A stretch of 64,000 bases of DNA from Pseudomonadota bacterium. GTDB lineage: Bacteria; Pseudomonadota; Gammaproteobacteria; Burkholderiales; Chitinibacteraceae. Under the pieces are notes generated by a model, which saw only the letters and a list, made by a program, of their open reading frames with translations, had not been told where the DNA came from and searched no databases. Every line of letters starts with the position of its first letter. The first letter of the stretch is position 1. The position numbers were made by a program, and so were the translations under genes. Location of the stretch: positions 1,603 through 65,602 of the forward strand of contig JAPLQI010000110.1 of assembly GCA_026399755.1 (NCBI GenBank), given 5' to 3'. Positions 5,419 through 23,673 of the stretch are shown one piece after another.

Positions 5419-5426
5419 AGGCGTTT

Positions 5427-5908: not shown

Positions 5909-5964
5909 GGTAATTCAATGATTGCGCAGCAGGTCGCTCAATCAAAAAATGCTCCCGAAACGTC

Positions 5965-7674: not shown

Positions 7675-8562
7675 TCACACCATCGAATGAATCCCAAACA
7701 CCCTTGCCTGCTCCAGTACCCCATGCGCCCAAGCGCGGTGGGTGGCTACTTCGCACATGGAATCGTGCATTCTAAATACGGCAGGGCTGGATTCATCGAT
7801 GATCCTCATCGCCACATCCACATCCCGATGCTGCACCCGATAGTGCTGCTCGATCAGCGCCACTTGGCTAGGGTGAATCGCGGTTTTGCCTATCATGCCG
7901 TGGGCCAAGTCTTCTTCTACTTCCAGAGCCAGCAGGCTTGGGTTATCTAAATGCTCAAAAACAGGCGCAGTCAGCACAAAGCCGTAAGGGCGAAAAATGG
8001 TCACCAGCTTTGAGATCACGGCCCCCAGCGGGGTTCGGTAAATTGTAAGATGCCGCGGCCTGCGAATGCCCAATAGCGCCAGCAAATCATTTCCACCAAT
8101 CCGCAGGGCCTGAATATGATCCCGCACGCCGGGGCGCTCTAGGCAAAGGCGTAGCTGCTTCATCTCGGCATCATCAAACACTTCCACCGTTTCTAGCGTG
8201 GGCATCAGCATAAATTGCGTTTTGCGGATCTGATTAAAGTAAGCGTCAAAATTATGCTGAGTAATTTTCGGCAGCACAAAGCCTGTCAGTTTTTCCACGC
8301 CAGGCATTTCTAGCACGCGCTTCAGCACTTCCGGGTTTCTAACCCGCACAAAACGCTCGGTTGTAGGCCGCTCAACCATCTGTTGCAAGACAAGCGATAG
8401 GCTAAACAGGGCGTAGCTCAGCTCGCTTTCTGCCACTGCGTCTTCGGTACAAAAAATCACTGAGCGCAGCTCACCCAGCAACTCGCCATCAGCAATCTGC
8501 AGCAAATCCTTGTGGGTGGCGGGCACGTAGAGCGATGCCCCCATAACTTTATGATTAGCCAT
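7675..8562 (-). CDS. HpcH/HpaI aldolase / citrate lyase beta-like protein (ter-associated)
   Basis: GASLYVPA, VIFCTEDAV, IGGNDL, GKTAIHPSQ; overlaps the upstream gene. Confidence 0.85.
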   Translation of the reverse strand: MANHKVMGASLYVPATHKDLLQIADGELLGELRSVIFCTEDAVAESELSYALFSLSLVLQQMVERPTTERFVRVRNPEVLKRVLEMPGVEKLTGFVLPKITQHNFDAYFNQIRKTQFMLMPTLETVEVFDDAEMKQLRLCLERPGVRDHIQALRIGGNDLLALLGIRRPRHLTIYRTPLGAVISKLVTIFRPYGFVLTAPVFEHLDNPSLLALEVEEDLAHGMIGKTAIHPSQVALIEQHYRVQHRDVDVAMRIIDESSPAVFRMHDSMCEVATHRAWAHGVLEQARVFGIHSMV

Positions 8563-9664
8563 CTAAAACACTCCCAATCAGTGATACCGCTTGATAAGGC
8601 AAGCCCGCGTCCACAATGAGCGGTACGTTTTTTTCTATTGCCAGTAGCTTTAAATGCGCCACATCGGCTACCGCCGGATCGCGCAAAATCAAGAGCCTTG
8701 GCACTCTGCGCAGCAACACACGGGTGGCTTCGCCTATACCTGGCTTGATCAGATTAACATCTTCAACACCGTACTGTTCTTGTGTTGCTTGCAAAAAATC
8801 AGCTGAAATCTGGGCCATTTTTACCCGATCAATCGGCAATGCTGCAGCTGGTACGCCATGCTGTTCCGCCAAGCGAGTCGCATCGGCGACCAAACCATCA
8901 GAAAACACTTGCGACTGATCTTGCGACTCAAACTCATCGTAATAAACGCAGCCATGAAAATCATCCGGCCCAATCGAATCATTCAGTACCGAGCGGCTAA
9001 CTAGGCCAGAAACGGTGGCGTTTAAGATGCTGGACGGGATCAGATAATCTTCTGCCGAGGCCGCGCACGCTGCCGTACCCGCTAGATCAGACAACACATA
9101 GAGCCCACTATCGATAGCGACACTATGCTGCAAATTAAACGCATTCACCGCCTGCTCCAGCACGCGTGAAATCACGCCCTTGCCGGTCCAGCCATCAATA
9201 AACACAATAGATTCCGGGCGATGCCCCTGCTGCAAAATATGCTGCAAGGCCACCGCATCAATGCCTCGATCACGAATAATCGACACCGAGTAATGCACTA
9301 CTTCCCGACCAAGCACACCTTGCAAAATATGCTTCAAAATCACGCCAACGGGTGTGCCTGCACGCACTAAGGAAACCAGCGTAATCGGCCCGCTACGTCT
9401 TGCGGCAATCAACGCCGCCAGCCTTAAGCAATCTCCTGCCATTTGCTGACGATTGGCCGCCAGTGCATCTTTAAAAACTTGCAAATAGCGAGGGGAAGGC
9501 AAGGACTCAGGAGACAGCATTTCACTGTAATGACGCGCGCCTGATTGAATCAAAAACTCTTTATTTGCCACATCAATAAACGGCTGTTGCGATAAGCGTT
9601 TAAGCAAAAAGCGCACATCATCCGGACGATAACTACCGCAAAAGCCGCGATTTCCAATATTCAT
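8555..9664 (-). CDS. StiP-like PRTase-fold protein with C-terminal PELOTA/L7Ae-like RNA-binding domain
   Basis: GSYRPDDVRFLLK, SLVRAGTP, FIDGWTGKG; C-terminal IKPGIGEATRVLLRRVP. Confidence 0.8.
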   Translation of the reverse strand: MNIGNRGFCGSYRPDDVRFLLKRLSQQPFIDVANKEFLIQSGARHYSEMLSPESLPSPRYLQVFKDALAANRQQMAGDCLRLAALIAARRSGPITLVSLVRAGTPVGVILKHILQGVLGREVVHYSVSIIRDRGIDAVALQHILQQGHRPESIVFIDGWTGKGVISRVLEQAVNAFNLQHSVAIDSGLYVLSDLAGTAACAASAEDYLIPSSILNATVSGLVSRSVLNDSIGPDDFHGCVYYDEFESQDQSQVFSDGLVADATRLAEQHGVPAAALPIDRVKMAQISADFLQATQEQYGVEDVNLIKPGIGEATRVLLRRVPRLLILRDPAVADVAHLKLLAIEKNVPLIVDAGLPYQAVSLIGSVLDG

Positions 9665-10413
9665 AAAGTGGCAACAGTCAGCTTGGCTAGCTGTGTGCCA
9701 TTTGGAATCAAGGCGTAATCACAGCTCGCCATAAAACGGGCATCCGATTGGCTATCGCCCATGCCGATGGTCATGATTTCACCGTGCTCTTTTTGCAGTA
9801 GTGAGCGCACATAGTCCACCGCGCGGGCCTTATTTAGTGTTTTTGGTAACACGGCTAAATTATTGCCATTGCGGTGAATAAAGAAATCTTTTCCCTCGCC
9901 CGCCACCCAAGGCGCAACGGCTTCACGCTCGATTTGCTCCAGATTGGCGTCAATTTTATCGGGGTCTTTAATCAGCGCATAAAATGGCGTATTGCAATCC
10001 TCAACCAAACGAGCGCGACCCTTTAAGCCGACTTTTTCGCAGTAGTTATCAATCACGCCCATCACCGCGTGCAAGCCAGGCAATGCCTGCTCCATATCCA
10101 CCCGCATCGCTTCCAGCCAAAACTCATCTACGCTGCCACAGGGCTTAAGCACCACGCCGCCATAATCAATGATGGAATAACTATTAAAAGGTAAATCTAC
10201 CCGACGCAAGGCATCTAGATTGCGCGCCGTGCTTGGAATCAGCGTCATGGATGCACTCATCATTTCAAAAAATGCACGCTGACGTGGCGTAGTGAATGAA
10301 ATAGCCACGCCGTCTTTCAGATAGCCGACCGGACGTAAATCCTCTACCCCAGCGCACTTACCTAGCGTTTGGAATAAGGTGTCGTCCAAATCAACGAACA
10401 GATATTTCTTCAA
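9661..10413 (-). CDS. HAD-superfamily phosphatase (ter-associated)
   Basis: Motif I DLDDT, STAR, K, GDSQSD; TTG start overlapping the upstream gene. Confidence 0.85.
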   Translation of the reverse strand: MKKYLFVDLDDTLFQTLGKCAGVEDLRPVGYLKDGVAISFTTPRQRAFFEMMSASMTLIPSTARNLDALRRVDLPFNSYSIIDYGGVVLKPCGSVDEFWLEAMRVDMEQALPGLHAVMGVIDNYCEKVGLKGRARLVEDCNTPFYALIKDPDKIDANLEQIEREAVAPWVAGEGKDFFIHRNGNNLAVLPKTLNKARAVDYVRSLLQKEHGEIMTIGMGDSQSDARFMASCDYALIPNGTQLAKLTVATL

Positions 10414-11560
10414 TATGATTCTCAGATAAAAAATGGAATAAACGGCCGCCTACGGCTTGTGCAGTGCTATACAGCGCTTCATTAGGCGGGGTTTCATGAC
10501 AAACTAATACATGATCGTACTGGCCGAGTGTGACGTTATAAATATAATTTTCGACCCCCTCGCCATAGTTATCCGAAAAGCTCAAGGCTTGGCTCACCGC
10601 ACCCCATGTCAGGATGGGTGAACGTGTGGTCGATTGCACCAGCACATCTACGCCCAATGCTTCTAGTGCACTACCCAGCAGAAAAGCCAGATGCATAAAC
10701 TCGCCCGTGCCTAAAACCAACACTCGCTCACCAGCCTTCATACTAGCGGCTAATTTTTGCGCCAAAGCATGGGGAGCCGCCAGCGCACGATTCAGCCCCA
10801 AGCGGCCAAAATCGCCATTTGCGCCACGATCAGCGTGCGCCTCAAACACCTGCGCCGCGCCACTGGGCGGCTGCAAGTTGCCAGCTGTAAACACATATTC
10901 ACCGCTTAAGCTGGCGGCAATTGATACAGGAATACCAAAGCGTTGCGATAGAGCCTCGTTCGCGTCCTTTCCCATAAAATTGGTAATGGTGGCGAGGTGG
11001 ACGTGCTCGATGAGGGGGTTCAGTACCCGACAGGCATTGCTTAAATTCAAAAAGGTATTGCCGGTACTGGCTTCATCGTCCACCAGCACGAGGGATTTAG
11101 CGCTTAGCAGCAGCGCTCGCAACTCGGCATCTTGTGGCATATGCAAAAACTGCCGTGGTGCATGGCTGTGTGCTTCGGCAAATTCAATAATCTCTGCCCC
11201 ACCAACGTGATAACGCGAGGTGTGTAAAAACAGCGCTTCTGTATCCGGATGAGCGTCTTTATAAGCCTCAAAAACCCCTTGCCCCAAGCCAATCGCCGTC
11301 TCAGCCATGGCGATAAACACCACCGGGCTGGGTAAATCGGCAGGGACTTGCTCGGCTAAATCCACATGGATTTTACGCATCAGCGAGGGGCGCACCGGCC
11401 AGTGCTTGCCCAGCACCTTGCTTAAAAAAAGAAACCCCCGCTTGGCATTGGCGCGCGCCGCAAAGCCCATCAGCTCGTCCACGCTAAATGCGCCCGCATC
11501 AACGGTGAGTTCCATCAGGCCAGTGGGTAATTCAACCTTAATCGTTTGCGGACTAGTCAT
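10391..11560 (-). CDS. Phosphoribosyltransferase domain protein with TRSP domain
   Basis: RANAKRGFLFLSKVLGKH, PRPP-loop LVDDEASTGNT, VQSTTRSP; TAATG coupling at 11560. Confidence 0.85.
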   Translation of the reverse strand: MTSPQTIKVELPTGLMELTVDAGAFSVDELMGFAARANAKRGFLFLSKVLGKHWPVRPSLMRKIHVDLAEQVPADLPSPVVFIAMAETAIGLGQGVFEAYKDAHPDTEALFLHTSRYHVGGAEIIEFAEAHSHAPRQFLHMPQDAELRALLLSAKSLVLVDDEASTGNTFLNLSNACRVLNPLIEHVHLATITNFMGKDANEALSQRFGIPVSIAASLSGEYVFTAGNLQPPSGAAQVFEAHADRGANGDFGRLGLNRALAAPHALAQKLAASMKAGERVLVLGTGEFMHLAFLLGSALEALGVDVLVQSTTRSPILTWGAVSQALSFSDNYGEGVENYIYNVTLGQYDHVLVCHETPPNEALYSTAQAVGGRLFHFLSENHIEEISVR

Positions 11561-12615
11561 TACAGCGCCGCGCATGATGCTTCAACTTCGGCATCGGCCA
11601 GCACGGCCGCACGGCCCAGCTCGGCAACCCGAATACCATGCCTCACTTCTGGAATATGCACCTTATCAAAACCGCGATCAAAGCCCGCCAAAGCGAGGTA
11701 AGGTAAATTAGCCCCTGCAAGGCAGGCCATGGCAATGCCGCCAGACATACGCGGATTAATTTCTAAGAGGCCAAGGCCGCCCGCTCTTTCTTTGAATTGC
11801 ACATTAAAATTGCCATTTAGGCCAAAGGTTTTAGCCAGCTGGCGCACGCTATCTAAAATATCGCTACGCATTTCAATCATCTGGCCACGGCCAGCTTGCT
11901 TCATTTTTTTGCGCGGCACGGCGCAAACCAAGCGGCCATTGTCGCCAACGCAATCCACGCTGTATTCATGGCCATCTAGATATTCCATGACAATCATGGT
12001 TTTAAACGTGCCCATTTCAGCAAAGCCACGACGCAAATCATCCAAGCCAATATGGTATTGCACGCCTTCTACCAATAGCTGCGCGCTGGAGCGCTCTTCT
12101 TCAATCACCGCAAAACCTAGGCCAAACACCGATTTGGCTGGCTTAATACAGAGCTTGGCATGATCTTGCTTAAGCGCTTGATAAGCCGCTTCAAACTGCT
12201 CGGCGGTTTCTACAACCCGAAACGCGGCCTGTGGCGTGAGCGGCAAATCAACCATTTGATAAAACGCTGCCTTATCGTGTATCAATTCCAGCATTTCAGT
12301 AGAGGCCACGGATAAAACACGCGTGCCCTGCTGCTCAAAGCGCTCACGCTCCGCACTGATTAATACGGCTTCCTTGCCGGGGATAAAAATCGTGATGGCG
12401 TGATCAAGACAAAATTGTAAGCACCATGCCAGATACGCTTCACCTTGCAGGCCGGAAGGCTCAACTGCATATTCGTGAGCCTCTTGAAACGATGCTGCAT
12501 ATGGATTGGTATGACTGGAGACGATGTGATAATCGCCCGCAAGATCGGCCTCGCGAATCAGGCTGATGGCTACGGCGACAGAGGAAAATGTTTTATTGAA
12601 CCAGACGTGCTGCAT
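11560..12615 (-). CDS. ATP-grasp domain protein
   Basis: VWFNKTFSS N-terminus, CIKPA, MEYLDGHEYSVD, LEINPRMSGG; start moved to ATG 12615. Confidence 0.87.
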   Translation of the reverse strand: MQHVWFNKTFSSVAVAISLIREADLAGDYHIVSSHTNPYAASFQEAHEYAVEPSGLQGEAYLAWCLQFCLDHAITIFIPGKEAVLISAERERFEQQGTRVLSVASTEMLELIHDKAAFYQMVDLPLTPQAAFRVVETAEQFEAAYQALKQDHAKLCIKPAKSVFGLGFAVIEEERSSAQLLVEGVQYHIGLDDLRRGFAEMGTFKTMIVMEYLDGHEYSVDCVGDNGRLVCAVPRKKMKQAGRGQMIEMRSDILDSVRQLAKTFGLNGNFNVQFKERAGGLGLLEINPRMSGGIAMACLAGANLPYLALAGFDRGFDKVHIPEVRHGIRVAELGRAAVLADAEVEASCAAL

Positions 12616-12853
12616 AGATGCCTTCAGGAAACGAGCCAACAATATGTCGGGCTAAATTCCTGACTAAAAAAGAGCCAGATTTATTCGTATCCAGAGCTTT
12701 CAATAGCGATTAGCCAAAAAACTCAAAAATAGCTCCTAAACAAATGGCGCTTTACCAGAGGCAATCAAACCCGACATACAACTAGCGCGGGGCTTATTTC
12801 CACAAGATTGCGGAAATAAGCCACCACGCGATAGAGAATTAAAATACTTATTT

Positions 12854-12937
12854 TTACAGGTGCAGCGTGATTTGTGGCCTCAGCTCATCAAAGGTACGGC
12901 TATTGCCAATTTCACCGATGGCGTGCATTTTCCACTC
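12854..12937 (-). repeat. Diverged tandem duplicate of the last 84 nt of terZ
   Basis: Aligns with 12944-13027 with 8 substitutions; period 90 nt. Confidence 0.95.
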
Positions 12938-12943
12938 CTCACA

Positions 12944-13525
12944 TTACAGGTGCGGTGTAATTTGCGGCATCAGTTCATCAAAGGTACGGCCATTACCAAT
13001 TTCACCGATGGCGTGCATTTTCCACTCATTATTATGACGATATAGCTTGGCCATAATTTGTGCATTGTGCGAGCCCAGTGCGGACAGGTTGAAACGAGCG
13101 ACTTCTTTATTGTCATTCGCGTTCAGGATACGGCAAGTGGCATTGGCAATTTGCGAGAAATTCTGACCAGTGAAGCTATTCACCGTGAAGACCAAGCTTT
13201 TAACGTTGGCAGGCACGCGGCTCAGATCAACCACAATTTGCTCATCATCGCCATCGCCTTCACCAGTGCGATTGTCACCAGTATGCGTTACCGAGCCATC
13301 TTTAGATTTCAGCTGGCGAAACCATACAGCATCAATTGGATGATTTTGCTCATCAAACAAGATGCAAGACGCATCTAAGTCGATATCAGGTGCGCTGCCG
13401 CCAAAGCCCAAGAAACCTTTAGACTTCACCGCATCCCAGGCAAGGCCCATGATGATTTTGCTTAATGTAACGCCAGCCTCTTTATCGAGGGAAATCTTTT
13501 GGCCTTTTTCTAGGTTAATCGCCAT
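12944..13525 (-). CDS. terZ: TerZ-type TerD-family protein
   Basis: KGFLGFGG insert, IDLDASC, GDNRTGEGDGDDE, FTVNSF; AAGGAG RBS before ATG 13525. Confidence 0.85.
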   Translation of the reverse strand: MAINLEKGQKISLDKEAGVTLSKIIMGLAWDAVKSKGFLGFGGSAPDIDLDASCILFDEQNHPIDAVWFRQLKSKDGSVTHTGDNRTGEGDGDDEQIVVDLSRVPANVKSLVFTVNSFTGQNFSQIANATCRILNANDNKEVARFNLSALGSHNAQIMAKLYRHNNEWKMHAIGEIGNGRTFDELMPQITPHL

Positions 13526-13550
13526 GCTGTACTCCTTGATGGTGGGTATT

Positions 13551-13775
13551 GTAGGGCGGGTAAAACCCGCCAATGAGGACATGAAATACTAGGAAAACGG
13601 CGGGTTTCACCCAAGCCTATCAACTTAGCCATATGCCATGACATGGCTACACCATGGTAAATATTGAATCATCATAGGGCGGGTGAAACCCGCGTATTTC
13701 TCAGCATTGCTCGCGGGTTTCACCCGCCCTACGAATAACGTTTTACTTACGTTGATAGGACTGGGGTTATCCGCC
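13551..13775. repeat. BIME-like REP mosaic (two REP doublets plus linkers)
   Basis: REP pairs at 13551-13620 and 13674-13732; linkers shared with 33976-34135 and 55772-55830. Confidence 0.85.
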
Positions 13776-13803
13776 AAACAAAGCCCGTTAAGTCAGTTTT
13801 AAT

Positions 13804-14514
13804 TTAAACGCCAGTCTTTTTCTTCAGCCACTCGGCAAAAGAATCTCGGCTTCTGGAGCAAATAAATACCTTACCTGTGCCGCTAAAGCGCAGCACGATG
13901 CCTTCGCCACTGGTTACGCTATTGACTAAATTGCCCAGCATACCGCCCAAGCCACCGCCGGTATTGCCTGTAGTCACGGAGATTTCGTATTGCAAATTAT
14001 TGTCCCAGCACACCACATGCGAGTTATCAATAATCACATCCTTACCTGGGGTGACATCCAGCTCAAACATCGAGCCAAAGCCCGACACCACCACCTGCCC
14101 TGTACCGGAGGTTTCCATAATAAAAAAACCACCAGACTGGGCAAATAATGCGTTACCAATACTTTGCGTGCGCACTTTCATTTCTGTGCCCGATGTTGCC
14201 GCAACAAAAGCGCCATCATTCAATAAATACTGTGTTTTGCCCACATCAACCACGCGTAAAGCACCTGGCAATGTTGGGGACAACAGGCAATCGCCTTCAC
14301 CCCTTACCGCCTCAATTTGCTGCTGAAAGAAAGACTCGCCATTAGCAAAGCGACGCATAATCGCCCCGCCTATGCCGCCATTCATGCTGCCTTTTAAATC
14401 CAGATTGGCTTCCATCATCACCATTGCATCAGATTCGCAATAGATCTTGTCACCCTTTTGTAAAGACACGTGCAAAAACGGATCAACATCACCGGTAGCA
14501 GTAAATACAGTCAT
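13804..14514 (-). CDS. AIM24 (TIGR00266-like) family protein
   Basis: ESDAMVMM, GESFF, GGFFIMETSGTG, IDNSHVVCW. Confidence 0.85.
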   Translation of the reverse strand: MTVFTATGDVDPFLHVSLQKGDKIYCESDAMVMMEANLDLKGSMNGGIGGAIMRRFANGESFFQQQIEAVRGEGDCLLSPTLPGALRVVDVGKTQYLLNDGAFVAATSGTEMKVRTQSIGNALFAQSGGFFIMETSGTGQVVVSGFGSMFELDVTPGKDVIIDNSHVVCWDNNLQYEISVTTGNTGGGLGGMLGNLVNSVTSGEGIVLRFSGTGKVFICSRSRDSFAEWLKKKTGV

Positions 14515-14555
14515 TGTGCAGTAACACCTTTAATTAGTTTTTTGCTTTACACATA

Positions 14556-15857
14556 TTAAATAAGGCCATGTTGCGCAGCCAGCTTGAGCCAGCCTGGGTA
14601 TTCCGTCATCAGTAGGTCATACAGCGCAGCATCTGAATGCTCATCAGGGGAGCTCAGTGAGAAATAATCGGCATTATCAATCAAGCGCCCTGGTAAATCA
14701 TCAAGGCTTTCCAAAAAAGGGAAATCAGAGTCGGAAAACGCTAATAAGCGTTTACTCTTGGATTTTCTGCCCTTACCAATCCCCATAAATTGCCAGAAAA
14801 TCGGCTCTTTACTCGACCAGCGCAATTGCTTTTCGGTGAGGGTTTGATCTGAGGTAGATCCATCAGTTACAAACATCACATACACCGGCTGGCTGGCTTT
14901 ACTCAGCCCTTGGCATTCGCCACCGGCGTTTTCTGGAAAGTAAAATTTGCGTATCGCCTCCATCGCACGCCCGTAGCGCGTATCGCCTTCTAAGGGGTGG
15001 CGCTGGATAATCTGTTGGATATAACCATGGAAATTGGCTAATTCCATAGGTGCTGGCTGATGGACTTTTTCGCCAAATAAAAACACATCAATCGCACCGT
15101 CATCATCAAACTGGCAGGCCAATGCAAGGATGCGCTCTGCAAAAGATTGTACTAGCCCCTTTTTATATAGGGCACTCATTGAGCCAGAAATATCAAGGCA
15201 TAAACAGACTCTGGCGCGATGGCGCTCTAAGCCTGCTTTTTGCAGCGATACGCCCGCAGCCTTATGTAAATTGACCAGTTGCGGCGCGACGCTCGCTATT
15301 TTTTTCTCTAAAGATACCTTTGCTGCCGGTAGCGGATCGTCTGCCACACTGCCGCCAAAATGGGTAACTAAGGCATCTAAGCCACCATCAAAGCCTTGGC
15401 CAACGGCCATAAAACGCCAATCACCTTCTTTGCGATAAAACTCGCCCAGCATTAAGGCGCGCTCGGCGGAAAAATCAGCGCCTAAAAAAGAAAAGCGGGC
15501 ATGTTCACGCTCCCCTTCAGTAATTCTTAAATAACCTGAGCGCAAAAGCGACATCGTTCCGCCCTCGCTCGCACTCACAGCCACAACGACACGCTCAATA
15601 CTGCGGGGTAATTTTTCGAGCTGGAAAGCAAAACCTGTCGCATCACCCTGCACATTGCATACTTCAACCCCGCCACAGGGGGTGCGGGTTTGATTAAAAA
15701 ACGTCATATAACGATCGTCAGATAATTTGCCAGCCGAATCAAGCCCAAAGCAGGCAAAGTCGACTGGCAAACCTTCCGCAAGCAAACCCACTTGAAAAGA
15801 CCCCGCCGGAATCACTTCTCGAATATTCAGGCGCTGGCCCTTTGCAAGTAGAGTCAT
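14556..15857 (-). CDS. TerD domain plus vWA (TerF-like) protein
   Basis: N-terminal TerD fold (GQGFDGGL); vWA MIDAS LDISGSM and FVTDG; IFWQFMGIG. Confidence 0.87.
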   Translation of the reverse strand: MTLLAKGQRLNIREVIPAGSFQVGLLAEGLPVDFACFGLDSAGKLSDDRYMTFFNQTRTPCGGVEVCNVQGDATGFAFQLEKLPRSIERVVVAVSASEGGTMSLLRSGYLRITEGEREHARFSFLGADFSAERALMLGEFYRKEGDWRFMAVGQGFDGGLDALVTHFGGSVADDPLPAAKVSLEKKIASVAPQLVNLHKAAGVSLQKAGLERHRARVCLCLDISGSMSALYKKGLVQSFAERILALACQFDDDGAIDVFLFGEKVHQPAPMELANFHGYIQQIIQRHPLEGDTRYGRAMEAIRKFYFPENAGGECQGLSKASQPVYVMFVTDGSTSDQTLTEKQLRWSSKEPIFWQFMGIGKGRKSKSKRLLAFSDSDFPFLESLDDLPGRLIDNADYFSLSSPDEHSDAALYDLLMTEYPGWLKLAAQHGLI

Positions 15858-15870
15858 AGTGCGAACCTTA

Positions 15871-16446
15871 TTAAGCGCTAATACCGAAAGAACGTGCTAA
15901 GGGGCCTAAGCCACCTGCAAAGCCTTGGCCTACCGCTTTGAATTTCCACTCTGCGCCAGCACGGTAGATTTCACCGAAGATCATGGCTGTTTCTGTTGAG
16001 CTGTCTTCTGATAAATCATAACGTGCGATTTCTTTATCGCCATTGGCATCAAGGCAGCGGATATACGCTTTGCCTACCATACCAAAGTTTTGCTTACGTG
16101 CTTCGGCATCATGAATCGTCACGCCAACGGTGATTTTTTCGATGTCCGCAGGCACTAAAGCCAAATCAATCACAATTTTTTCATCGTCGCCATCGCCTTG
16201 GCCGCTGGTGTTGTCACCCGCGTGGGTTACTGAGCCATCGGTTGATTTCAAGTTATTGTAAAAAATGAAATCTGAATCAGCGCGAACCTTGCCATCTGCT
16301 TTCAACAGAAAAGCACTGCCGTCCAAATCGAAGGCCGAACCATCGGTAGCGCGTGGATCCCAACCTAGACCAAGTACCAACTTTTTGAGGGAAGGCGCTT
16401 CTTTACTTAAATTGACGTTACCGCCTTTTTGTAGACTAATAGCCAT
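15871..16446 (-). CDS. TerD/TerE family protein
   Basis: [28 protein letters not shown]. Confidence 0.92.
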
Positions 16447-16814: not shown

Positions 16815-18314
16815 CTACATGCCCGCCTCGCCCACCATCTGCACCACCACTAACCTGCCACCCTCGCACTTATCGAGCAAAATTTGCTGCCCGTCTTTCA
16901 AGGCCAATTTACCGCCAATAGCCACGGTTTGCTTAGTCGCCACATCCATTAAATCGGGCAGACCCACATTAAAAATCCACCACACATTGCGATAGAAAAT
17001 AAAGTAGGCCACGCGTTGCTGTTGATCCTCGGTCAGCTTTTCATTCGAGGCCAGCAAATAATTGGCGTGCCACGGATAAAGCGATTGCCCTTCCCACACC
17101 ATTAAGCGGTGGTTATCAGGCCGAAACTGCCCCTCTTGGCGGGATGAATACAGATTAAGCACCGGCAGCTGGCCGTGATAAGCCGAGCCACAAAACGGGC
17201 AAGCGGGCTGGGTGGAGTTATCAAACACAAACCATTTTTGCTCGCAGCGGCAAGGCAGTGCTAGATCTATGGTTTTAAGCAGTGCCGTTTCCCAATCATT
17301 GGCCGATGGGCGCTTAGTCGGCTGATGCAGCCCGTCAACAAAAGCTTGCTTAAACAGCGGCGCCAGATAAGGCCCGGTCAGAGTGTAAGGTAACTTACTA
17401 GCATCGGCCCACGGCAGCTCTGTCGGCTTGGCGTCATTCAGATTAATGCGATTGCTTGAATCGCTAGGATGCTCAATAAACAGCGCACGCTCGCCCATAG
17501 CAAGCGCTTCGTCACGCTGCTCATCATTCATATCGTGTACTTTGCCGCCGCGCAGAGGGTGGCGATACAGCAAATACATATAGATCAGCACGGCCAGCGC
17601 ATGCTGGTCTGTTTCGCGGCGTGGCAAATTGCGCTGCGGATCGCCCTTGGCTAAATGGCTGGTGCTCACTACTTCGGGCGCAATAAAATCAGGCGTGCCC
17701 ACCACATCCGGCGGATAGCGGCCCGGCACCACTAGGCCATCCACATCAATCACGCAGGCAAAACCACCGGATGGATCGACCAGCACGTTTTTATACGACA
17801 AATCAGAATGCGCAAGCCCTGCCATATGCATACGGCGCACCGCACGGGCAATCAACACGCAGATTTTTAAATGGCTAAGCCAATCGCCCAGCTCGCGCTG
17901 ATCGACAAAACGCTGGCGTAAATTGGCGGCAGCAAACCACTTGCCTTCCTTTTCCTTACCCTTGATCTCGAGCATGTCGTGGTTTTTGGAGCCAAATTCA
18001 AAGAAAAAATGCGCAGGATAAGTTGGAGCAATCAGCCCGTGTCGCCCCTCGTACTCTAAAAGCGCCGTTGGCCAGCAAAATAGGTTTTTCCAGTAATCGC
18101 CGCCCGCCTGATTAAAAATCCCCTCGCGGTATTTGCCGATAATCATCTGCAAACGCTCAAGCGCCTGAGCGTCCTGTTGCTTCTTATAAAACGCCACCAC
18201 ATAAGATTTATCCGGCGAAAAATACACCTCTTTCATCGCCCCAGAAGCAATCATCTCATCCACAAACTCAACGAGCTGCCCATCCAATGTGCGGCACTGA
18301 ATCACCTTCGCCAT
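16815..18314 (-). CDS. TerY-associated Ser/Thr kinase-like protein with Zn-ribbon and C-terminal domain
   Basis: HSDLSYKN catalytic loop, DVDG, GTPDFIAPE, C-x-C...CPFCG; AGGAG RBS before ATG 18314 (the ORF-track start lies in a repeat). Confidence 0.87.
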   Translation of the reverse strand: MAKVIQCRTLDGQLVEFVDEMIASGAMKEVYFSPDKSYVVAFYKKQQDAQALERLQMIIGKYREGIFNQAGGDYWKNLFCWPTALLEYEGRHGLIAPTYPAHFFFEFGSKNHDMLEIKGKEKEGKWFAAANLRQRFVDQRELGDWLSHLKICVLIARAVRRMHMAGLAHSDLSYKNVLVDPSGGFACVIDVDGLVVPGRYPPDVVGTPDFIAPEVVSTSHLAKGDPQRNLPRRETDQHALAVLIYMYLLYRHPLRGGKVHDMNDEQRDEALAMGERALFIEHPSDSSNRINLNDAKPTELPWADASKLPYTLTGPYLAPLFKQAFVDGLHQPTKRPSANDWETALLKTIDLALPCRCEQKWFVFDNSTQPACPFCGSAYHGQLPVLNLYSSRQEGQFRPDNHRLMVWEGQSLYPWHANYLLASNEKLTEDQQQRVAYFIFYRNVWWIFNVGLPDLMDVATKQTVAIGGKLALKDGQQILLDKCEGGRLVVVQMVGEAGM

Positions 18315-18354
18315 ACCTAACTCCTGATTGCCTGCTGCAAATAAAATTGTGAAG

Positions 18355-18688
18355 AAGCCCAAATCTTGAGATCTAAAACCCAAATCTTGAACCACGGAGT
18401 TTGGGAGGACACGGAGGGCCACGGAGAAAACCTTTAGGGGGTATCACTAAAGAAAAAAACATAACAAAAAGATGTTTTTCATAGGGTGTGCAAGTCGCTT
18501 TTCTTGCGCACCGCCCTTTTGCGCTCCGACTGCGTCGTTGTACACCCTATAAAAACTGATTCGTTCCATGACAAAAGTGAATCGCGCATGAACGCGTGGG
18601 CATAAAAACCTACCCACCCTACATTACTAGGTTTTCTCCGTGAAACTCCGTGTTCTCTGGGACCGAAGAGGTTCAAGATTTGGGTTTT
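18355..18688. repeat. Nested repeat composite: inverted CACGGAG pair enclosing GTAG-type REPs
   Basis: Outer arms 18355-18430 and 18630-18688; inner (A/G)TAGGGTG-type REPs at 18481-18622. Confidence 0.8.
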
Positions 18689-18703
18689 AGCAGATACCCC
18701 AAC

Positions 18704-19984
18704 TCAAGCCCAAAGCAGCGCCATGCTTCGGTCATCATGGTGGCCGGGGACGAAAAAACCCATCCAATCCAGCAGGCTTTGCTCTGGATTATCCGCGGCA
18801 AGGCAAGGGGCGATTTCGTTCCAGAGGGCGTCCCATTTATCGCCAGTGGCTAGGCCTTTATCTGTTTCAAACTTGGGATCAGAAATACCATCACTCATCA
18901 AAATCACCGCCGAAATATCGGTATAACGGCCGATTTTCACCCGCTGAGCAAAGCGATCAGAAGCTAAGGCAGCACGGTCTAAAAAGCGGGTTTGGCCTGC
19001 AAATTCACCGCTATCGGGCAGGCCCATCAGCCGCACTTTGCCTTGCGGCCCATAGGCGGCAATCGCGCCATCGCCCATCCAAAATGTGGCTACAAAGAGC
19101 TGCGTGCCTTCCCGCTTTACAGCCGCAGCTAATAAAGTTGTAGCGTAATCCTTGGCATCCCCCTGCTGTAATGCCGCAGCCTGCTCTATGGCATCCACCG
19201 CCAAAGCCGCGGCATCGTAAAACAGAGAATGAAACTGCCTACCGATTTGCCCGCTAATGGATTCGGGATCAGCATCCCAGCCTTGCAGCGCATGATGAAT
19301 GCTGATTCCAAGATCCCCTTTTAATGCCGCCAGCAAATGCTCACCCGCAGTTTCTACCGCCAGCTTTGAACCATAGCGGGAATACTTGGCACTGCCTGCA
19401 CCATCGGCGACCAGCAGCACACTCCAGCCTGATGCCGCATCATGCTGCACAAAAAAATCATCATCCCTGAACAGGCCAGCATGCTCGTGCGAGCGTCCAC
19501 GGCGGCTGGCGGCGGCAATCTTTAAATCACCCGCATTGAGTGCCCGTGCTGCGCTATGTGGCTTGGGATACACAGCGTCACTGGCTGGCTCATTGATCTG
19601 CCACAGGCTGCGCGGATCAGGATTCACCAGCAGCACGCATTGGCCTATATGCCATTGCAAGCCATCCTCCGACCACTGAAAGGTGATGAGATGATCACCA
19701 GCCACTGCGGGCAGCCCCTGTAATTCTCCTTCCTCGCTCAAAGTCAGCGTCAAAGCAGCAGGCAGGCTAATCTCTTTAAACTGCAAGGCCCGACCATTGG
19801 CCGCCACTTCACGCAACTTGCCGCAATAAACCTGCCCCGCCTTGGCATTAGGCGCTTGAAAAACCACTTTGGGGCTAAGCGGCTGGCGTGCCACCGTGCC
19901 AGCAGGCGGTATTGCACCGGGTTTATTGGATAAATGAATAGGCGAGGATTCAGGCGGGGAATTTGAATCGGAAGGAAGATGCAT
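18704..19984 (-). CDS. PP2C-family phosphatase with N-terminal Ig-like segment
   Basis: RGRSH, REDD-like RDDD, VADGAGSA, MGDG, MSDG, DDRS; start uncertain (19984 chosen because the 20113 and 20068 starts lie in the repeat). Confidence 0.82.
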   Translation of the reverse strand: MHLPSDSNSPPESSPIHLSNKPGAIPPAGTVARQPLSPKVVFQAPNAKAGQVYCGKLREVAANGRALQFKEISLPAALTLTLSEEGELQGLPAVAGDHLITFQWSEDGLQWHIGQCVLLVNPDPRSLWQINEPASDAVYPKPHSAARALNAGDLKIAAASRRGRSHEHAGLFRDDDFFVQHDAASGWSVLLVADGAGSAKYSRYGSKLAVETAGEHLLAALKGDLGISIHHALQGWDADPESISGQIGRQFHSLFYDAAALAVDAIEQAAALQQGDAKDYATTLLAAAVKREGTQLFVATFWMGDGAIAAYGPQGKVRLMGLPDSGEFAGQTRFLDRAALASDRFAQRVKIGRYTDISAVILMSDGISDPKFETDKGLATGDKWDALWNEIAPCLAADNPEQSLLDWMGFFVPGHHDDRSMALLWA

Positions 19985-20065
19985 AGCAGTCTCATGTGTT
20001 CCCCGTGGAAGAGTCAGTAGCGGGGAGGTGTCATTTATAAGCAGTGGGCCTTGGGTTGCCCCCTC

Positions 20066-20379
20066 CATACGTACTAAGCAAAGTCTAAAAGATCTTTTTA
20101 GTGCCTTCGGCACGTTGATTTAGGTGCGGGCGTCCCGCGGGACCTTCCTTTCTTGTGTGGCCAAGAAACGAAGCCAAAGAAGGCCACCCCACGAAACACG
20201 AAGGCCCCTACGCTGCGGACAATCGAGTCGGCGGCAGGCGGGATTGGCTCGCTGCCTCGCTCCCTGGCCGAAACCCCGCCCCGCTTGTTTCAAGGGGAGA
20301 TTTAAGCCCCGTGTTGAGAGCGTAGTCGTCATCTTTTTTCTTTGTTTGCTACTCAGAATAAAATTGCTTAATACACATG
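20066..20379 (-). mobile_element. MITE-like element, copy D with target-duplication-like flanks
   Basis: Terminal repeats 20066-20082 and 20363-20379; flanks GGGTTGCCCCCTC (20053-20065) and GGGTTACCCCCTC (20380-20392). Confidence 0.85.
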
Positions 20380-20432
20380 GGGTTACCCCCTCTCCCAAAC
20401 TCCCCCCAGATGACAAGGGACTTTAAAAGCAA

Positions 20433-21476
20433 TCACCCTCTCCCACGCCCTACATCAAAGCCATCCTCGTCCCCAGAGCAACTAAACGAGACTAATTTTT
20501 TGCACCAAGGGCAAAAGCCTTCTTCTGGGCCGTTGATGCACATGAGTTTTCCACAGCCGCAGGCGGCAAAGGCGGTGAAGTTGCCGCAGTGCGGGCAGCC
20601 AGGAGTGCCCATTAAGTCTGCGCTGTTTACCTTTAGATCCATGGCCCGCGGATCAGACCAGATAAAATAATCTTCTTCTAGCGGATAGCAGCCAGCGATC
20701 TCAAAGCGCGTAACTTGCAGCTTAAAATCTTGGGTCGCTACGTTTTGAATCGCTCGGTCATACTTCATCAGATAGGGTTTGCGGGTCTTTTGACAACGCC
20801 CTACCAAGGTGATGCAGGCTTCATCGGCTTGTTTGGAAGGTGGATTTTTGAAAATACGCATCAGGCTGGCGTCGATATTAGCCAGAGATTGTGCATCGCT
20901 CTCGCCCACGCTTTTACTTTGCGCCACCACGGAAGCCGTTACCCAGTTGATAAACTTTTTGAAATCGCCTTCCTGCGTGTCTTCAAACATCATGGCGTTG
21001 TCGGTTAGCCTGCGCAGCGTTTCAAAATCGACCGACTGGCCCAAACCCACCGCAATCAGCGTGGCTTTTTTGGCGTATTTAGCATTCCAGCGATCAATGG
21101 CCGTGTTGGGATTATCCGTTGGGCGACCATCGGTAAAGAGATAGACAATCGGCTTCCAATCCCCTTTGCGATCAGGCGTGGTTTTGACCACGACGCTATC
21201 TAACTCAGCCATCAGCGTTTCTAAAGCCACGCCCAAGCTGGTTCCTCCGCCAAGCGGCAATTTGGGCGGGTAAAAAGAAACCAGCTCAACCAAGGGAGCA
21301 ATGGTTTTGGCCACGCCCGCAAAAGCAATCACCGAGATATAAACAGTTTCTAGGGCGTGAGGATCGGTTCTGAGCGCACGAACAATGGCTTGCAAGCCAT
21401 CTTCCATTTTTTGCAGGCTGTCGCCCACCATCGATTCGGAACAATCCAAAACAAAAAACACCGGCAATCTGCGCAT
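20433..21476 (-). CDS. terY: TerY vWA protein with C-terminal Cys-rich metal-binding (TerY-C) domain
   Basis: MRRLPVFFVLDCSESM, FTDG, CPHCG...CGCG...C...CPWC. Confidence 0.9.
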   Translation of the reverse strand: MRRLPVFFVLDCSESMVGDSLQKMEDGLQAIVRALRTDPHALETVYISVIAFAGVAKTIAPLVELVSFYPPKLPLGGGTSLGVALETLMAELDSVVVKTTPDRKGDWKPIVYLFTDGRPTDNPNTAIDRWNAKYAKKATLIAVGLGQSVDFETLRRLTDNAMMFEDTQEGDFKKFINWVTASVVAQSKSVGESDAQSLANIDASLMRIFKNPPSKQADEACITLVGRCQKTRKPYLMKYDRAIQNVATQDFKLQVTRFEIAGCYPLEEDYFIWSDPRAMDLKVNSADLMGTPGCPHCGNFTAFAACGCGKLMCINGPEEGFCPWCKKLVSFSCSGDEDGFDVGRGRG

Positions 21477-21518
21477 GGTTTTGCTCTTTTAATAACAGGC
21501 CTTACTTCGAGATATATC

Positions 21519-21577
21519 GTAGGGCGGGTGAAACCCGCGTATTTTTCAGCAGTGCTCGCGGGTTGCACCCGCCCTAC
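21519..21577. repeat. REP doublet (REPIN)
   Basis: GTAGGGCGGGTGAAACCCGCG...CGCGGGTTGCACCCGCCCTAC. Confidence 0.9.
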
Positions 21578-21581
21578 AACA

Positions 21582-22220
21582 TTACAGAACCAAATGAATT
21601 TCTGGTGGCGGAGGCGGCAAAGCCACGTCGTTAGCGACGCCCGCGCTGCTGCTGCCTACGGCGACACTGGCGGAAACCCATTTAAAAAATCCTGAAAACG
21701 CCGAGGCATCCAAGGTGTCTAGCGTGACGACACGATCAGTCAGTTCCAGCAAATATTCTTGCTTGGCCTTAGGGCCTGCGGCGCAAGCAATAATGGCCCC
21801 AAACTGACACTGCTTAATCGCTGGGATTGCTTGCCTATAAGCATGCAGATCAGACGGGCTGCCATCGGTCATTAAAAACATCAGCGGCCGCCAGTCGCCT
21901 TTTTCATCCTCACTACTCTTTTGCACATCACGCTCTAGGCACTCAAGCAGCAGCTCCAATGCCGCCCCCATAAAGGTGGCTCCGGCATTCGGGGAACTCA
22001 CATCATGCAGCTGCACATCAGCCAGCGGCGTTAAAGGCAGGTATTCGCGCGCCTCTAAATCAAAAGTAATAATTGATAGCGCCACGCTTTCTAAAGCATA
22101 AGGATCTTGCCGAAGTGCGCTGAGCATGGCTTGCAAGCCCACATTCACCGAATGAATGGGCTCGCCACGCATGGAGCCTGAGGTATCAAGAAGGATGTAA
22201 ACGGGAAGGCGTCTGCTCAT
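21582..22220 (-). CDS. terY: TerY vWA protein
   Basis: RRLPVYILLDTSGSM, DPYALESV, GDWRPLMFLMTDG. Confidence 0.9.
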   Translation of the reverse strand: MSRRLPVYILLDTSGSMRGEPIHSVNVGLQAMLSALRQDPYALESVALSIITFDLEAREYLPLTPLADVQLHDVSSPNAGATFMGAALELLLECLERDVQKSSEDEKGDWRPLMFLMTDGSPSDLHAYRQAIPAIKQCQFGAIIACAAGPKAKQEYLLELTDRVVTLDTLDASAFSGFFKWVSASVAVGSSSAGVANDVALPPPPPEIHLVL

Positions 22221-22334: not shown

Positions 22335-22976
22335 TCAACTGTATTGTTTTAACCACTCAACAAATGAATCTGATTGAGATGGTGCGCCAATTGCATTGAA
22401 TTTCCACCCACCATCTTCACGAATCAATTCTGCAAACAACATGGAACGGCAGTTTTCATACTGAGCACCACCGGATAAATCAAAGCGCACCATTTCTTGG
22501 CCTTTGCCATCTTCGGCACGGATAAAAGCATTTTGCACTTTGCCAAAGCTTTGACCATTTTCGGCTGCATTATAAATTTGCACCACAAATACGACTTTTG
22601 CATATTGTTCCGGCAAATCATTCAGTCTAGCGATCACCTGCTCGTCGTCCCCCTCTCCCACTCCGGTGCGATTGTCCCCGGTCATCCAAATTTGGCCGGA
22701 ATGATGGCGCATAGAATTAAAAAAGATAATATCGCCGCCCACCAAGGTAGAACGCCCCCCTTCGGTACCGCCAAAATTCTGCACCTTGCCATCAGCACCA
22801 CAGAGAAACGCGATCACATCTAAATCGTATTCTTCTTCTTTTTTGCCAAATAAGCCGCCCAAAAACCCCTTTTTTTCCTCCCGAATATCCCAGCCTAGGC
22901 CAATAGTTACCATAGAGAGGTCGTTCTCATTTTTTTTGAGACTGATACCTTGACCTTTTTTCAGAGACAGAGCCAT
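22335..22976 (-). CDS. TerD family protein (TerZ-like insert)
   Basis: GLGWD, KKGFLGGLFG, GDNRTGVGEGDDE. Confidence 0.9.
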   Translation of the reverse strand: MALSLKKGQGISLKKNENDLSMVTIGLGWDIREEKKGFLGGLFGKKEEEYDLDVIAFLCGADGKVQNFGGTEGGRSTLVGGDIIFFNSMRHHSGQIWMTGDNRTGVGEGDDEQVIARLNDLPEQYAKVVFVVQIYNAAENGQSFGKVQNAFIRAEDGKGQEMVRFDLSGGAQYENCRSMLFAELIREDGGWKFNAIGAPSQSDSFVEWLKQYS

Positions 22977-23094: not shown

Positions 23095-23673
23095 TTAGCT
23101 TGCAGAAATACCAAACTGTGCACAAAGAGGGCCAAGGCCGCCTGCAAAGCCCTGACCTACTGCTTTGAATTTCCACTCGGCATTATGGCGGTACACTTCA
23201 CCAAAAATCATAGCCGTTTCGGTGCTGTAATCTTCGGATAAATCAAAGCGTACGATTTCTACATTGTTATCCAGATTCACCACGCGCATAAACGCGTCTT
23301 TCACCTGACCAAAGTTTTGCTTGCGTGCCTCAGCATCATGAATGGTGACGCACACGGCTACTCGCATAATCTCTGCAGGCACATTTTCTAAATTGATTTT
23401 TAGCGCTTCATCATCACCGTCGCCAGCACCTGTACGATTGTCGCCAGTGTGCTCAACAGAGCCGCAGCTCGATTTTAATTGGTTGTAAAAAATGAAATCT
23501 GCATCGCCACGTACTTTGCCATTTTCCCCAAGCAAAAAGGCCGTTGCATCTAAGTCAAAAGCCGCGCCATCAGTAGAACGCGCATCCCAACCCAAGCCCA
23601 ACAAAATTGATTTAAGACCTGGCTCTGTTTTAGATAAAGAAAGATTGCCGCCTTTGTTTAATGAAATAGCCAT
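23095..23673 (-). CDS. terD: Tellurium resistance/stress protein TerD
   Basis: [24 protein letters not shown], ends CAQFGISAS; AAAGGA RBS. Confidence 0.9.

What the first reader, a model, noticed from the sequence alone, without database searches (positions are those of the whole stretch)
16815..22220. Expanded TerY-phosphorylation module: two vWA proteins, PP2C and kinase
Seen: TerY, TerY with a Cys-rich domain, PP2C and a kinase with DVDG in place of DFG, a Zn-ribbon and an extra C-terminal domain. Known: three-gene TerY-P systems give anti-phage protection (Gao et al. 2020, from memory). Inference: a four-component variant wired to TerD sensors and the metabolite operon, possibly a defence circuit with an unknown kinase substrate.
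Basis: partly seen in the sequence, partly recalled or inferred. Interest (0 to 1): 0.62.

Follow-up and report, generated by a model that had tools for sequence, protein, structure and literature searches.

The report
Standard ter-cluster TerY kinase-phosphatase module
The four flagged genes are real and intact, but they are the ordinary kinase/phosphatase/vWA block found beside tellurite-resistance (ter) genes in thousands of plasmids and genomes, here with one vWA gene fewer than usual, so this is not a new expanded variant.

Summary
Observation confirmed. On the minus strand lie TerY (vWA, 22220-21582), TerY with a TerY_C domain (21476-20433), a PP2C phosphatase and a Ser/Thr kinase with DVDG, a Zn-ribbon and an extra C-terminal domain.

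Two starts need correcting. PP2C starts at ATG 19984 (426 aa) and the kinase at ATG 18314 (499 aa). The large gaps before these two genes hold dispersed genomic repeats, not coding sequence.

The reading "expanded four-component variant" is not supported.
- The order terX-vWA-vWA/TerY_C-PP2C-kinase is the canonical ter-linked TerY-P block.
- The kinase has full-length 62-74% identical homologues in more than 2,196 plasmids (IncHI2-type and others).
- Of 64 genomic loci with enough upstream sequence, 43 carry TerY-TerX-TerY-TerY_C-PP2C-kinase. That is one more vWA gene than here.

PADLOC models do not recognise any of the four proteins as a defence system. The Gao-type TerY-P is reported to carry an OB-fold kinase, not Zn-ribbon plus FHA-like.

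New details:
- The kinase tail folds like an FHA domain.
- PP2C carries an Ig-like N-domain.
- The conserved lysine sits in the Gly-loop.
- All four genes are under strong purifying selection (dN/dS 0.01-0.12).

Verdict: an ordinary member of a known but mechanistically unsolved system. Low interest.

The parts
23095..23673 (-). TerD-family gene, probable first gene of the unit
   Evidence: Pfam TerD 7.5e-86. Syntenic in six congeners.
22335..22976 (-). TerX-like TerD-family gene
   Evidence: Pfam TerD 5.5e-51. 70-78% identical to the terX-position gene of the E. coli IncHI2 plasmid and Polaromonas plasmid loci.
21582..22220 (-). TerY, a vWA protein (212 aa) with intact MIDAS motif DTSGS
   Evidence: Pfam VWA 5.8e-09. 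MIDAS at residue 12. dN/dS 0.01-0.03.
20433..21476 (-). TerY vWA plus TerY_C Cys-rich metal-binding domain (347 aa)
   Evidence: Pfam VWA 1.4e-13 and TerY_C 2e-57. MIDAS DCSES and 11 Cys in residues 218-347. dN/dS about 0.03.
20052..20394 (.). Copy of a dispersed genomic repeat (about 320 nt) in the TerY_C-to-PP2C gap
   Evidence: At least 40 copies at 79-95% identity in the own genome. 90% match to an Iodobacter fluviatilis plasmid. Gap length varies from 245 to 469 nt among congeners. No Rfam match.
18704..19984 (-). PP2C phosphatase (426 aa), true start ATG 19984
   Evidence: Pfam PP2C_2 2.6e-43. The MHLPSD start is conserved and stops lie upstream in six congeners. Motifs RRGRSHEH, DDDF, VADGAGS, SDGISD and HHDDRS are present. 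dN/dS 0.10-0.12.
19619..19867 (-). Ig-like beta-sandwich domain N-terminal to the PP2C core
   Evidence: AF2 model of residues 31-167 has mean pLDDT 87.3. Foldseek PDB hits are Ig-like, Rib, SraP, cadherin and PKD domains, best E 3.9e-4. No Pfam hit.
18373..18690 (.). MITE-like composite repeat with 21-nt perfect terminal inverted repeats, in the PP2C-to-kinase gap
   Evidence: Inverted repeats. 72 matching places in the own genome. Empty site in two congeners, where the gap is 51-53 nt, and different interiors in others.
16815..18314 (-). Soluble Ser/Thr kinase (499 aa), true start ATG 18314 behind an AGGAG
   Evidence: Pfam Pkinase 9.6e-09. H169-S-D171, N176, D190 and D192 are invariant in 80/80 relatives. 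K28 is invariant, but the beta3 position 44 is not. No TM segment. Collinear over its full length with plasmid homologues.
17190..17252 (-). Zinc ribbon of the kinase (C355, C357, C372, C375)
   Evidence: The four Cys are invariant in 33 diverse relatives. The first knuckle is 3 residues shorter than in most relatives.
16830..17174 (-). FHA-like beta-sandwich at the kinase C-terminus
   Evidence: AF2 model mean pLDDT 80.7, and over 88 across most of this part. All top 50 Foldseek PDB hits are FHA domains, best E 2.9e-3, prob about 1.0, target TM up to 0.64. Not detected by sequence.
7675..16446 (-). Downstream ter genes, given as context
   Evidence: In order: TerD, TerF (TerD+vWA), AIM24, TerZ-like, ATP-grasp, PRTase-TRSP, HAD, StiP-PELOTA and C-C bond lyase (Pfam).

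Best explanation
This is the canonical ter-associated TerY-phosphorylation (TerY-P) module in an Iodobacter chromosome. It is a cytoplasmic reversible-phosphorylation switch encoded with the TerD/TerZ/TerF calcium- or metal-binding proteins and the ter 'nucleoside-like metabolite' operon.

Shown here:
- Two MIDAS-bearing vWA proteins, one with the Cys-rich TerY_C domain.
- A PP2C phosphatase with an Ig-like N-domain.
- A soluble Ser/Thr kinase with all catalytic-loop and metal-binding residues conserved, followed by a zinc ribbon and an FHA-like domain.
- All four genes are intact, under strong purifying selection, and in the gene order seen across many phyla.

Inferred mechanism:
- A stress signal (metal, Ca2+ or envelope/phage-type stress sensed through TerD and TerY_C) shifts the kinase/PP2C balance.
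- The kinase phosphorylates itself and/or the TerY vWA proteins.
- The FHA-like domain and the MIDAS sites read acidic or phospho-sites to assemble or release a TerY-TerD complex.
- That complex gates the output of the ter system.

The substrate and the output remain unknown. The two large intergenic gaps are later insertions of mobile repeats and not part of the system.
For: Domain calls.

Same gene order in annotated records:
- E. coli IncHI2 plasmid: vWA, TerD-family, vWA, TerY-C, PP2C, kinase.
- Polaromonas pPNAP04.

Spread of the kinase:
- Full-length hits at 60-80% identity in more than 2,196 plasmids.
- More than 4,641 protein clusters.
- At least 489 genomic loci across Pseudomonadota, Campylobacterota, Bacteroidota and Acidobacteriota.

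Gene context in related loci:
- 57 of 64 loci carry at least two vWA genes plus PP2C directly upstream of the kinase.
- 49 of 50 loci have TerD-family neighbours.

Function and conservation:
- Catalytic residues are invariant in 80/80 relatives.
- dN/dS is 0.01-0.12 against three congeners.
- The cluster is syntenic in 7 congeners.

Folds: FHA-like and Ig-like.

Literature:
- The TerY-P triad is vWA + PP2C + STK-ZnR and is hypothesised to be a metal-sensing phosphorylation switch (PMC11090510, citing Anantharaman 2012).
- A vWA/PP2C/kinase triad, YegL-PphC-YegI, is enzymatically active in E. coli (bioRxiv 10.1101/819920).
Against: - No experiment on this or any ter-linked kinase/PP2C pair was found in the searchable literature. 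The substrate, signal and output are inference only.
- The FHA assignment rests on a predicted model with modest Foldseek scores (E about 3e-3, rmsd 5-6 A).
- I could not verify that canonical pThr-binding residues are retained.
- Repeat insertions of 340-390 nt between the genes could uncouple transcription of PP2C and the kinase in this strain.
- No RNA data exist to check this. Only DNA metagenome runs hold the locus.
Confidence: 0.88

Rival explanations
1. It is a stand-alone anti-phage defence system of the Gao 2020 TerY-P type. The ter genes would only be neighbours.
For: - It has the same three enzymatic or adaptor domain types.
- TerY-P-like modules were shown to defend against phage (PMC11090510, citing Gao 2020).
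- The R478 ter cluster has a historic phage-inhibition phenotype, and a terC deletion lowered phage resistance in Klebsiella (PMC12054061, citing Whelan 1995).
Against: - PADLOC-DB 2.0.0 gives no hit for either vWA protein or the PP2C, even at E<=10. The kinase gets only generic kinase hits (PD-T4-6, mad6, MkoA).
- The defence version is described with an OB-fold kinase tail. This one has a Zn-ribbon plus an FHA-like fold.
- This kinase subfamily is ter-linked in 49 of 50 loci.
- It is syntenic and slowly evolving within the genus. It is not in a variable defence island.
- The transposon insertions reported to affect phage inhibition mapped to terZ, terC, terD and terA, not to this block (PMC12054061).
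Confidence: 0.08
2. It is a genuinely new, expanded four-component variant of TerY-P.
For: - There are two vWA genes instead of the one in the 'triad' definition.
- The kinase has an extra C-terminal domain.
Against: - Two or three vWA genes are the rule in ter-linked loci. 57 of 64 loci have at least two, and 43 of 64 have three around terX.
- The kinase tail, the DVDG motif and the Zn-ribbon are collinear and conserved in all relatives.
- Thousands of annotated plasmids carry the same block.
Confidence: 0.02
3. The module is decaying in this strain. Mobile repeats inserted between TerY_C, PP2C and the kinase would have broken the operon.
For: - Two repeat insertions lie inside the unit.
- PP2C lacks the roughly 100-130 aa N-terminal extension seen in the E. 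coli and Polaromonas homologues.
Against: - All ORFs are intact and the kinase keeps its own AGGAG ribosome-binding site.
- dN/dS is 0.01-0.12.
- The short PP2C start is shared by all six congeners examined, including those without the repeats. It is therefore a lineage trait, not damage.
- Repeats sit only in non-coding gaps. The same was found for another locus of this genome (earlier finding e1-5206947).
Confidence: 0.04

Closest known systems
terW-terY-terX-terY-terY_C-PP2C-kinase block of IncHI2 (R478-type) plasmids and enterobacterial ter islands
   Same: - Same order from terX onward.
- Proteins 59-70% identical: TerX 70%, TerY 69%, TerY_C 59%, kinase 62% over 494 of 499 residues.
- Same kinase architecture, including DVDG, Zn-ribbon and C-terminal domain.
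- The same biosynthetic operon lies nearby.
   Different: - The window lacks the first vWA gene and terW, and has a TerD gene in their place.
- PP2C lacks the N-terminal roughly 100-130 aa extension.
- Genes are spaced by 100-450 nt, with two repeat insertions, instead of abutting or overlapping.
- The location is chromosomal, in Iodobacter.
TerY-P triad as defined by Anantharaman, Iyer and Aravind 2012 (as summarised in PMC11090510 and PMC4978471)
   Same: - A TerY-like vWA protein, a PP2C and a Ser/Thr kinase with a C-terminal zinc ribbon.
- Association with Ter proteins.
- A TerY_C metal-binding domain, which has its own Pfam family PF15616.
   Different: - Nothing essential differs.
- The FHA-like fold after the zinc ribbon and the Ig-like domain before the PP2C core are not mentioned in the summaries I could read.
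Gao et al. 2020 TerY-P anti-phage system
   Same: vWA + PP2C + kinase gene trio.
   Different: - The kinase tail there is reported as an OB fold (PMC11090510). Here it is a Zn-ribbon plus an FHA-like fold.
- No PADLOC model matches.
- This module is embedded in a ter cluster rather than standing alone.
E. coli YegL-PphC-YegI (vWA, PP2C, Ser/Thr kinase)
   Same: - Adjacent vWA, PP2C-like phosphatase and eukaryote-like kinase genes.
- Kinase and phosphatase activity is shown biochemically for that trio (bioRxiv 10.1101/819920 and 10.1101/303594).
   Different: - YegI is a 646-aa double-pass membrane protein. The window's kinase has no hydrophobic segment (max Kyte-Doolittle 19-residue mean 1.37).
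- The window's kinase carries a Zn-ribbon and an FHA-like tail.
- The yeg locus has no Ter neighbours, by the papers' description.

Membership tests
Ter-associated TerY-P module (Anantharaman 2012 sense) | TerY-like vWA protein with a MIDAS motif | tested here: met
   Two such genes. Pfam VWA 5.8e-09 and 1.4e-13. DTSGS and DCSES motifs.
Ter-associated TerY-P module (Anantharaman 2012 sense) | PP2C-family phosphatase adjacent | tested here: met
   PP2C_2 2.6e-43. Acidic metal-binding motifs are present.
Ter-associated TerY-P module (Anantharaman 2012 sense) | Ser/Thr kinase fused to a C-terminal zinc ribbon | tested here: met
   Pkinase hit. The catalytic loop is invariant. The four Cys are invariant in 33 relatives.
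Ter-associated TerY-P module (Anantharaman 2012 sense) | Gene-neighbourhood link to TerD-family or ter genes | tested here: met
   TerD genes lie on both sides and the biosynthetic operon lies downstream. 49 of 50 related loci have the same link.
Ter-associated TerY-P module (Anantharaman 2012 sense) | Orthology to the R478/IncHI2 block (same order, collinear proteins) | tested here: met
Gao 2020 TerY-P defence system | Match to the defence-system profile models | tested here: not met
   - PADLOC-DB 2.0.0 gives no family for either vWA protein or the PP2C at E<=10.
- The kinase gets only generic kinase models.
- Caveat: that PADLOC-DB holds TerY-P models at all is from memory, not verified here.
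Gao 2020 TerY-P defence system | Kinase fused to a C-terminal OB fold (per PMC11090510) | tested here: not met
   The C-terminal 159 residues model as a Zn-ribbon plus a beta-sandwich. Its top 50 PDB matches are all FHA domains.
Gao 2020 TerY-P defence system | Protection against phage when expressed alone | not testable with these tools
   Needs a plaque assay.
YegL-PphC-YegI type triad | Membrane-anchored kinase (two TM helices) | tested here: not met
   No 19-residue window has mean hydropathy above 1.37 in the kinase.
FHA domain (for the kinase tail) | FHA beta-sandwich fold | tested here: met
   - Foldseek finds only FHA domains among the top 50 hits, prob about 1.0, target TM up to 0.64.
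- Scores are modest (E about 3e-3, rmsd 5-6 A), so the fold match is of moderate strength.
FHA domain (for the kinase tail) | Canonical phosphothreonine-binding residues (Arg, Ser, His, Asn of FHA loops) | tested here: inconclusive
   - Invariant Q70-S71, W75-H76 and N109 (alignment A4 numbering) loosely resemble the G-R, S-x-x-H and N signatures, but Gln replaces Arg.
- No structural alignment could be inspected.
- No Pfam or PDB sequence hit.

The most novel reading that the evidence does not exclude
The ter-linked TerY-P block is the regulatory switch behind the old, unexplained phage-inhibition and colicin-protection phenotypes of ter clusters. It would work through an undescribed phospho-docking mechanism.

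- An atypical kinase uses a lysine in the Gly-rich loop instead of the beta3 strand, as WNK kinases do.
- It phosphorylates the TerY vWA proteins.
- Its own C-terminal FHA-like domain then captures the phospho-site.
- This assembles a TerY/TerY_C/TerD complex that turns on production or release of the ter metabolite.
Probability: 0.15. Interest if true: 0.5.

Novelty: already known. Interest (0 to 1): 0.14.

Why it matters
The finding adds another orthologue of a very widespread module whose mechanism has still not been worked out. It does not reveal a new kind of system.

The useful results are practical:
- Two- and three-vWA forms with PP2C and kinase should not be flagged as 'expanded' TerY-P. 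They are the norm beside ter genes.
- The ter-linked kinase family has no solved structure.
- Three of its features are not mentioned in the literature I could read: an invariant Gly-loop lysine, an FHA-like tail, and an Ig-like domain on its PP2C partner. These give concrete handles for anyone who wants to test how ter clusters signal.

Tried and rejected
- **Wrong-frame artefact.** My first tblastn of PP2C used a start one base off (19985). It still 'matched' congeners at 64-70%, because tblastn matched the same wrong frame. With the right frame, identity is 85-89%. The apparent fast evolution of PP2C was therefore an artefact, although its dN/dS is still the highest of the block.
- **PP2C N-terminus cut off by the repeat insertion.** Rejected. 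All six congeners examined start at the same ATG, including those with short gaps.
- **Structured RNA in the gaps.** Rfam found nothing at E<=1.
- **Promoters and terminators.** The scan gave fewer promoter-like sites than the shuffles and no more terminator-like sites than the shuffles.
- **Kinase-to-TerD gap (16447-16814).** It holds no repeat.
- **Near-identical DNA elsewhere.** None in E. coli genomes. In plasmids, only the repeat matched.
- **Sequence-level detection of the kinase tail and the PP2C N-domain.** Nothing was found.
- **Anantharaman 2012.** It could not be opened by PMC id, DOI or PMID. Its content is cited only through later papers.
- **Transcription evidence.** Only DNA metagenome runs hold the locus.


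Full report
**What is there**

On the minus strand the window carries one co-directional ter cluster.

| Coordinates | Gene | Pfam evidence |
|---|---|---|
| 23673-23095 | TerD | TerD 7.5e-86 |
| 22976-22335 | TerX-like TerD-family | TerD 5.5e-51 |
| 22220-21582 | vWA protein (TerY) | VWA 5.8e-09 |
| 21476-20433 | vWA protein with TerY_C | VWA 1.4e-13, TerY_C 2e-57 |
| ORF 20113-18704 | PP2C phosphatase | PP2C_2 2.6e-43 |
| ORF 18422-16815 | protein kinase | Pkinase 9.6e-09 |
| 16446-15871 | TerD | TerD 4.4e-83 |
| 15857-14556 | TerF-like TerD+vWA | vWA-TerF-like 9.9e-54, TerD 7e-30 |
| 14514-13804 | AIM24 | AIM24 2.4e-56 |
| 13582-12944 | TerZ-like | TerD 9.2e-54 |

The five-enzyme ter biosynthetic operon follows at 12642-7675.

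- The kinase has HSDLSYKN, DVDG and a four-Cys zinc ribbon, with about 120 residues beyond it.
- Both vWA proteins have intact MIDAS motifs, and the TerY_C part has 11 Cys.
- None of the proteins has a transmembrane-like segment.

**Corrections to the gene models**

The longest ORFs of PP2C and the kinase start at GTG codons inside repeat DNA.
- In six other species of the genus, the PP2C frame is closed by stop codons just upstream of a conserved MHLPSD start. This puts the start at window ATG 19984 (426 aa).
- The kinase aligns from its first residue, MAKV, with plasmid homologues. It has an AGGAG seven bases upstream of ATG 18314, giving 499 aa.

This leaves gaps of 448 nt and 389 nt.
- Both gaps are filled by dispersed repeats of this genome, with at least 40 scored copies of one and 72 matching places for the other.
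- The gap between PP2C and the kinase holds a MITE-like element with 21-nt perfect terminal inverted repeats.
- Two congeners have the empty site (a 51-53 nt gap). Others carry the same termini with different interiors.
- The gap after the kinase has no repeat.
- Nothing in these gaps matches Rfam.

**Is it an expanded variant?**

No.
- The kinase has full-length homologues at 60-80% identity in more than 2,196 plasmid records, mostly from Klebsiella, Escherichia, Salmonella and Enterobacter.
- In an E. coli IncHI2 plasmid the annotated order is terW, vWA, TerD-family, vWA, TerY-C protein, PP2C, kinase. Polaromonas plasmid pPNAP04 has the same order.
- A scan of one genome per species found at least 489 loci in several phyla.
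- Of 64 loci with at least 6.5 kb upstream, 43 read TerY-TerX-TerY-TerY_C-PP2C-kinase. About ten read TerY-TerY-TerY_C-PP2C-kinase. Only about five have the window's TerX-TerY-TerY_C-PP2C-kinase.
- The window therefore has one vWA gene fewer than the common form.
- Among 50 loci of at least 20 kb, all have PP2C and TerY_C, 49 have TerD-family genes, and 28 have at least three of the biosynthetic genes within 10 kb.

The literature already describes this.
- It writes the block as 'terY-CYXYW-ZABCDEF' (PMC12054061).
- It describes the TerY-P triad as a vWA protein, a PP2C and a kinase fused to a zinc ribbon, proposed to be a metal-sensing phosphorylation switch (PMC11090510, citing Anantharaman et al. 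2012; also PMC4978471).

**Host and inheritance**

- The nearest kinase is 96% identical and named from Iodobacter arcticus.
- The kinase is present in 8 of 12 genomes of the genus, counting the window's own, and absent from 29 other genomes of the family and order.
- The whole cluster is syntenic in the six congeners examined, at 85-99% protein identity.
- dN/dS against three congeners is 0.01-0.03 for the vWA and TerD-family genes, 0.06-0.07 for the kinase and 0.10-0.12 for PP2C.
- The genes are maintained by selection and are not decaying.

**Anatomy beyond the known annotations**

The kinase tail:
- I modelled residues 341-499 with an alignment of 33 diverse relatives. Mean pLDDT was 80.7, and above 88 over most of the last 110 residues.
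- All top 50 PDB matches are FHA domains, with best E 2.9e-3, probability about 1 and target TM up to 0.64.
- Sequence methods do not see this domain.
- Whether it still binds phosphothreonine is open. The invariant Q-S, W-H and N residues only loosely recall the FHA signature.

The PP2C N-terminal region:
- The conserved region before the PP2C core models as an Ig-like sandwich, with mean pLDDT 87.3.
- PDB hits are Rib, SraP, cadherin and PKD domains, best E 3.9e-4.

The kinase active site, in 80 relatives:
- His169-Ser-Asp171, Asn176, Asp190 and Asp192 are invariant.
- The usual beta3 lysine position is K/R/S/H.
- Lys28 in the Gly-rich loop (G-x-M-K-D-V) is invariant. From general knowledge of WNK kinases, this suggests a displaced catalytic lysine. 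That is an inference I could not test.
- No member of the family has a solved structure. The best PDB sequence hit is 2.5e-05, to the Rad53 kinase core only.

**Defence system or not**

- PADLOC-DB 2.0.0 gave no hit for either vWA protein or the PP2C, even at E<=10. The kinase got only generic kinase hits.
- The defence-proven TerY-P of Gao et al. is described as having an OB-fold on the kinase instead of the zinc ribbon (PMC11090510).
- Membership in that defence family is therefore not met on the two features I could test.
- A defence-related role for the whole ter cluster is not excluded. The R478 ter cluster was reported to inhibit phage, and a Klebsiella terC mutant lost some phage resistance (PMC12054061, citing Whelan 1995). 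Those effects mapped to terZ, terA, terC and terD, not to this block.

**Most likely mechanism**

Shown:
- The composition of the module.
- Conserved catalytic residues.
- Tight linkage to ter genes.
- Purifying selection.

Inferred:
- The kinase and PP2C set the phosphorylation state of the kinase itself and/or the TerY proteins.
- The MIDAS sites and the FHA-like domain read acidic or phospho-sites.
- TerY_C and TerD supply metal or Ca2+ input.
- The assembled complex modulates the ter response.

A comparable vWA/PP2C/kinase trio in E. coli (YegL-PphC-YegI) has demonstrated kinase and phosphatase activities, but its substrate is also unknown (bioRxiv 10.1101/819920).

**Verdict**

This is an ordinary, slightly reduced orthologue of a known and very common module. 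Interest is low. The FHA-like tail, the Gly-loop lysine and the repeat insertions are minor additions.

Noticed in passing
window 18373-18690: A MITE-like element with 21-nt perfect terminal inverted repeats (CTAAAACCCAAATCTTGAACC) sits between PP2C and the kinase. The same termini enclose different interiors in four congeners, and the site is empty in two. It looks like a nested, recurrently hit insertion site.
   Followed up: partly
window 20052-20394: A copy of an approximately 320-nt dispersed repeat. The own genome has at least 40 copies at 79-95% identity, including others in this window near contig C75 positions 1476-1810 and 42583-43093. It is also 90% identical to a stretch of an Iodobacter fluviatilis plasmid. 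No Rfam match.
   Followed up: partly
window 18231-18233 (kinase Lys28) and 18183-18185 (Lys44): In 80 relatives the Gly-loop lysine (G-x-M-K-D-V) is invariant, while the usual beta3 'VAxK' lysine position is K/R/S/H. This suggests a WNK-like displaced catalytic lysine in the whole ter-linked kinase family.
   Followed up: partly
window 18704-19984 versus L001:12338-13975 and L002:10174-11904: The Iodobacter PP2C proteins lack the poorly conserved 100-130 aa N-terminal extension present in the E. coli IncHI2 and Polaromonas homologues. The conserved part begins at the Ig-like domain.
   Followed up: yes
window 14556-15857; L016-L018: The TerF-like gene (TerD+vWA) between TerD and AIM24 is present in the window and three congeners. 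It is missing from that position in three others, which have only a distant copy elsewhere in the 20-kb stretch.
   Followed up: no
window 2549-7161: A methyl-accepting chemotaxis protein gene (3793-5418, + strand) lies between a TerC/DUF475 membrane protein gene (2549-3556) and a 398-aa TerD-domain gene (7161-5965) at the distal end of the ter cluster. No TerB gene was seen among the ORFs I scanned.
   Followed up: no
window 17238-17252: The first zinc-ribbon knuckle of this kinase is C-R-C. This is three residues shorter than the C-x4-C of nearly all relatives outside the genus.
   Followed up: no
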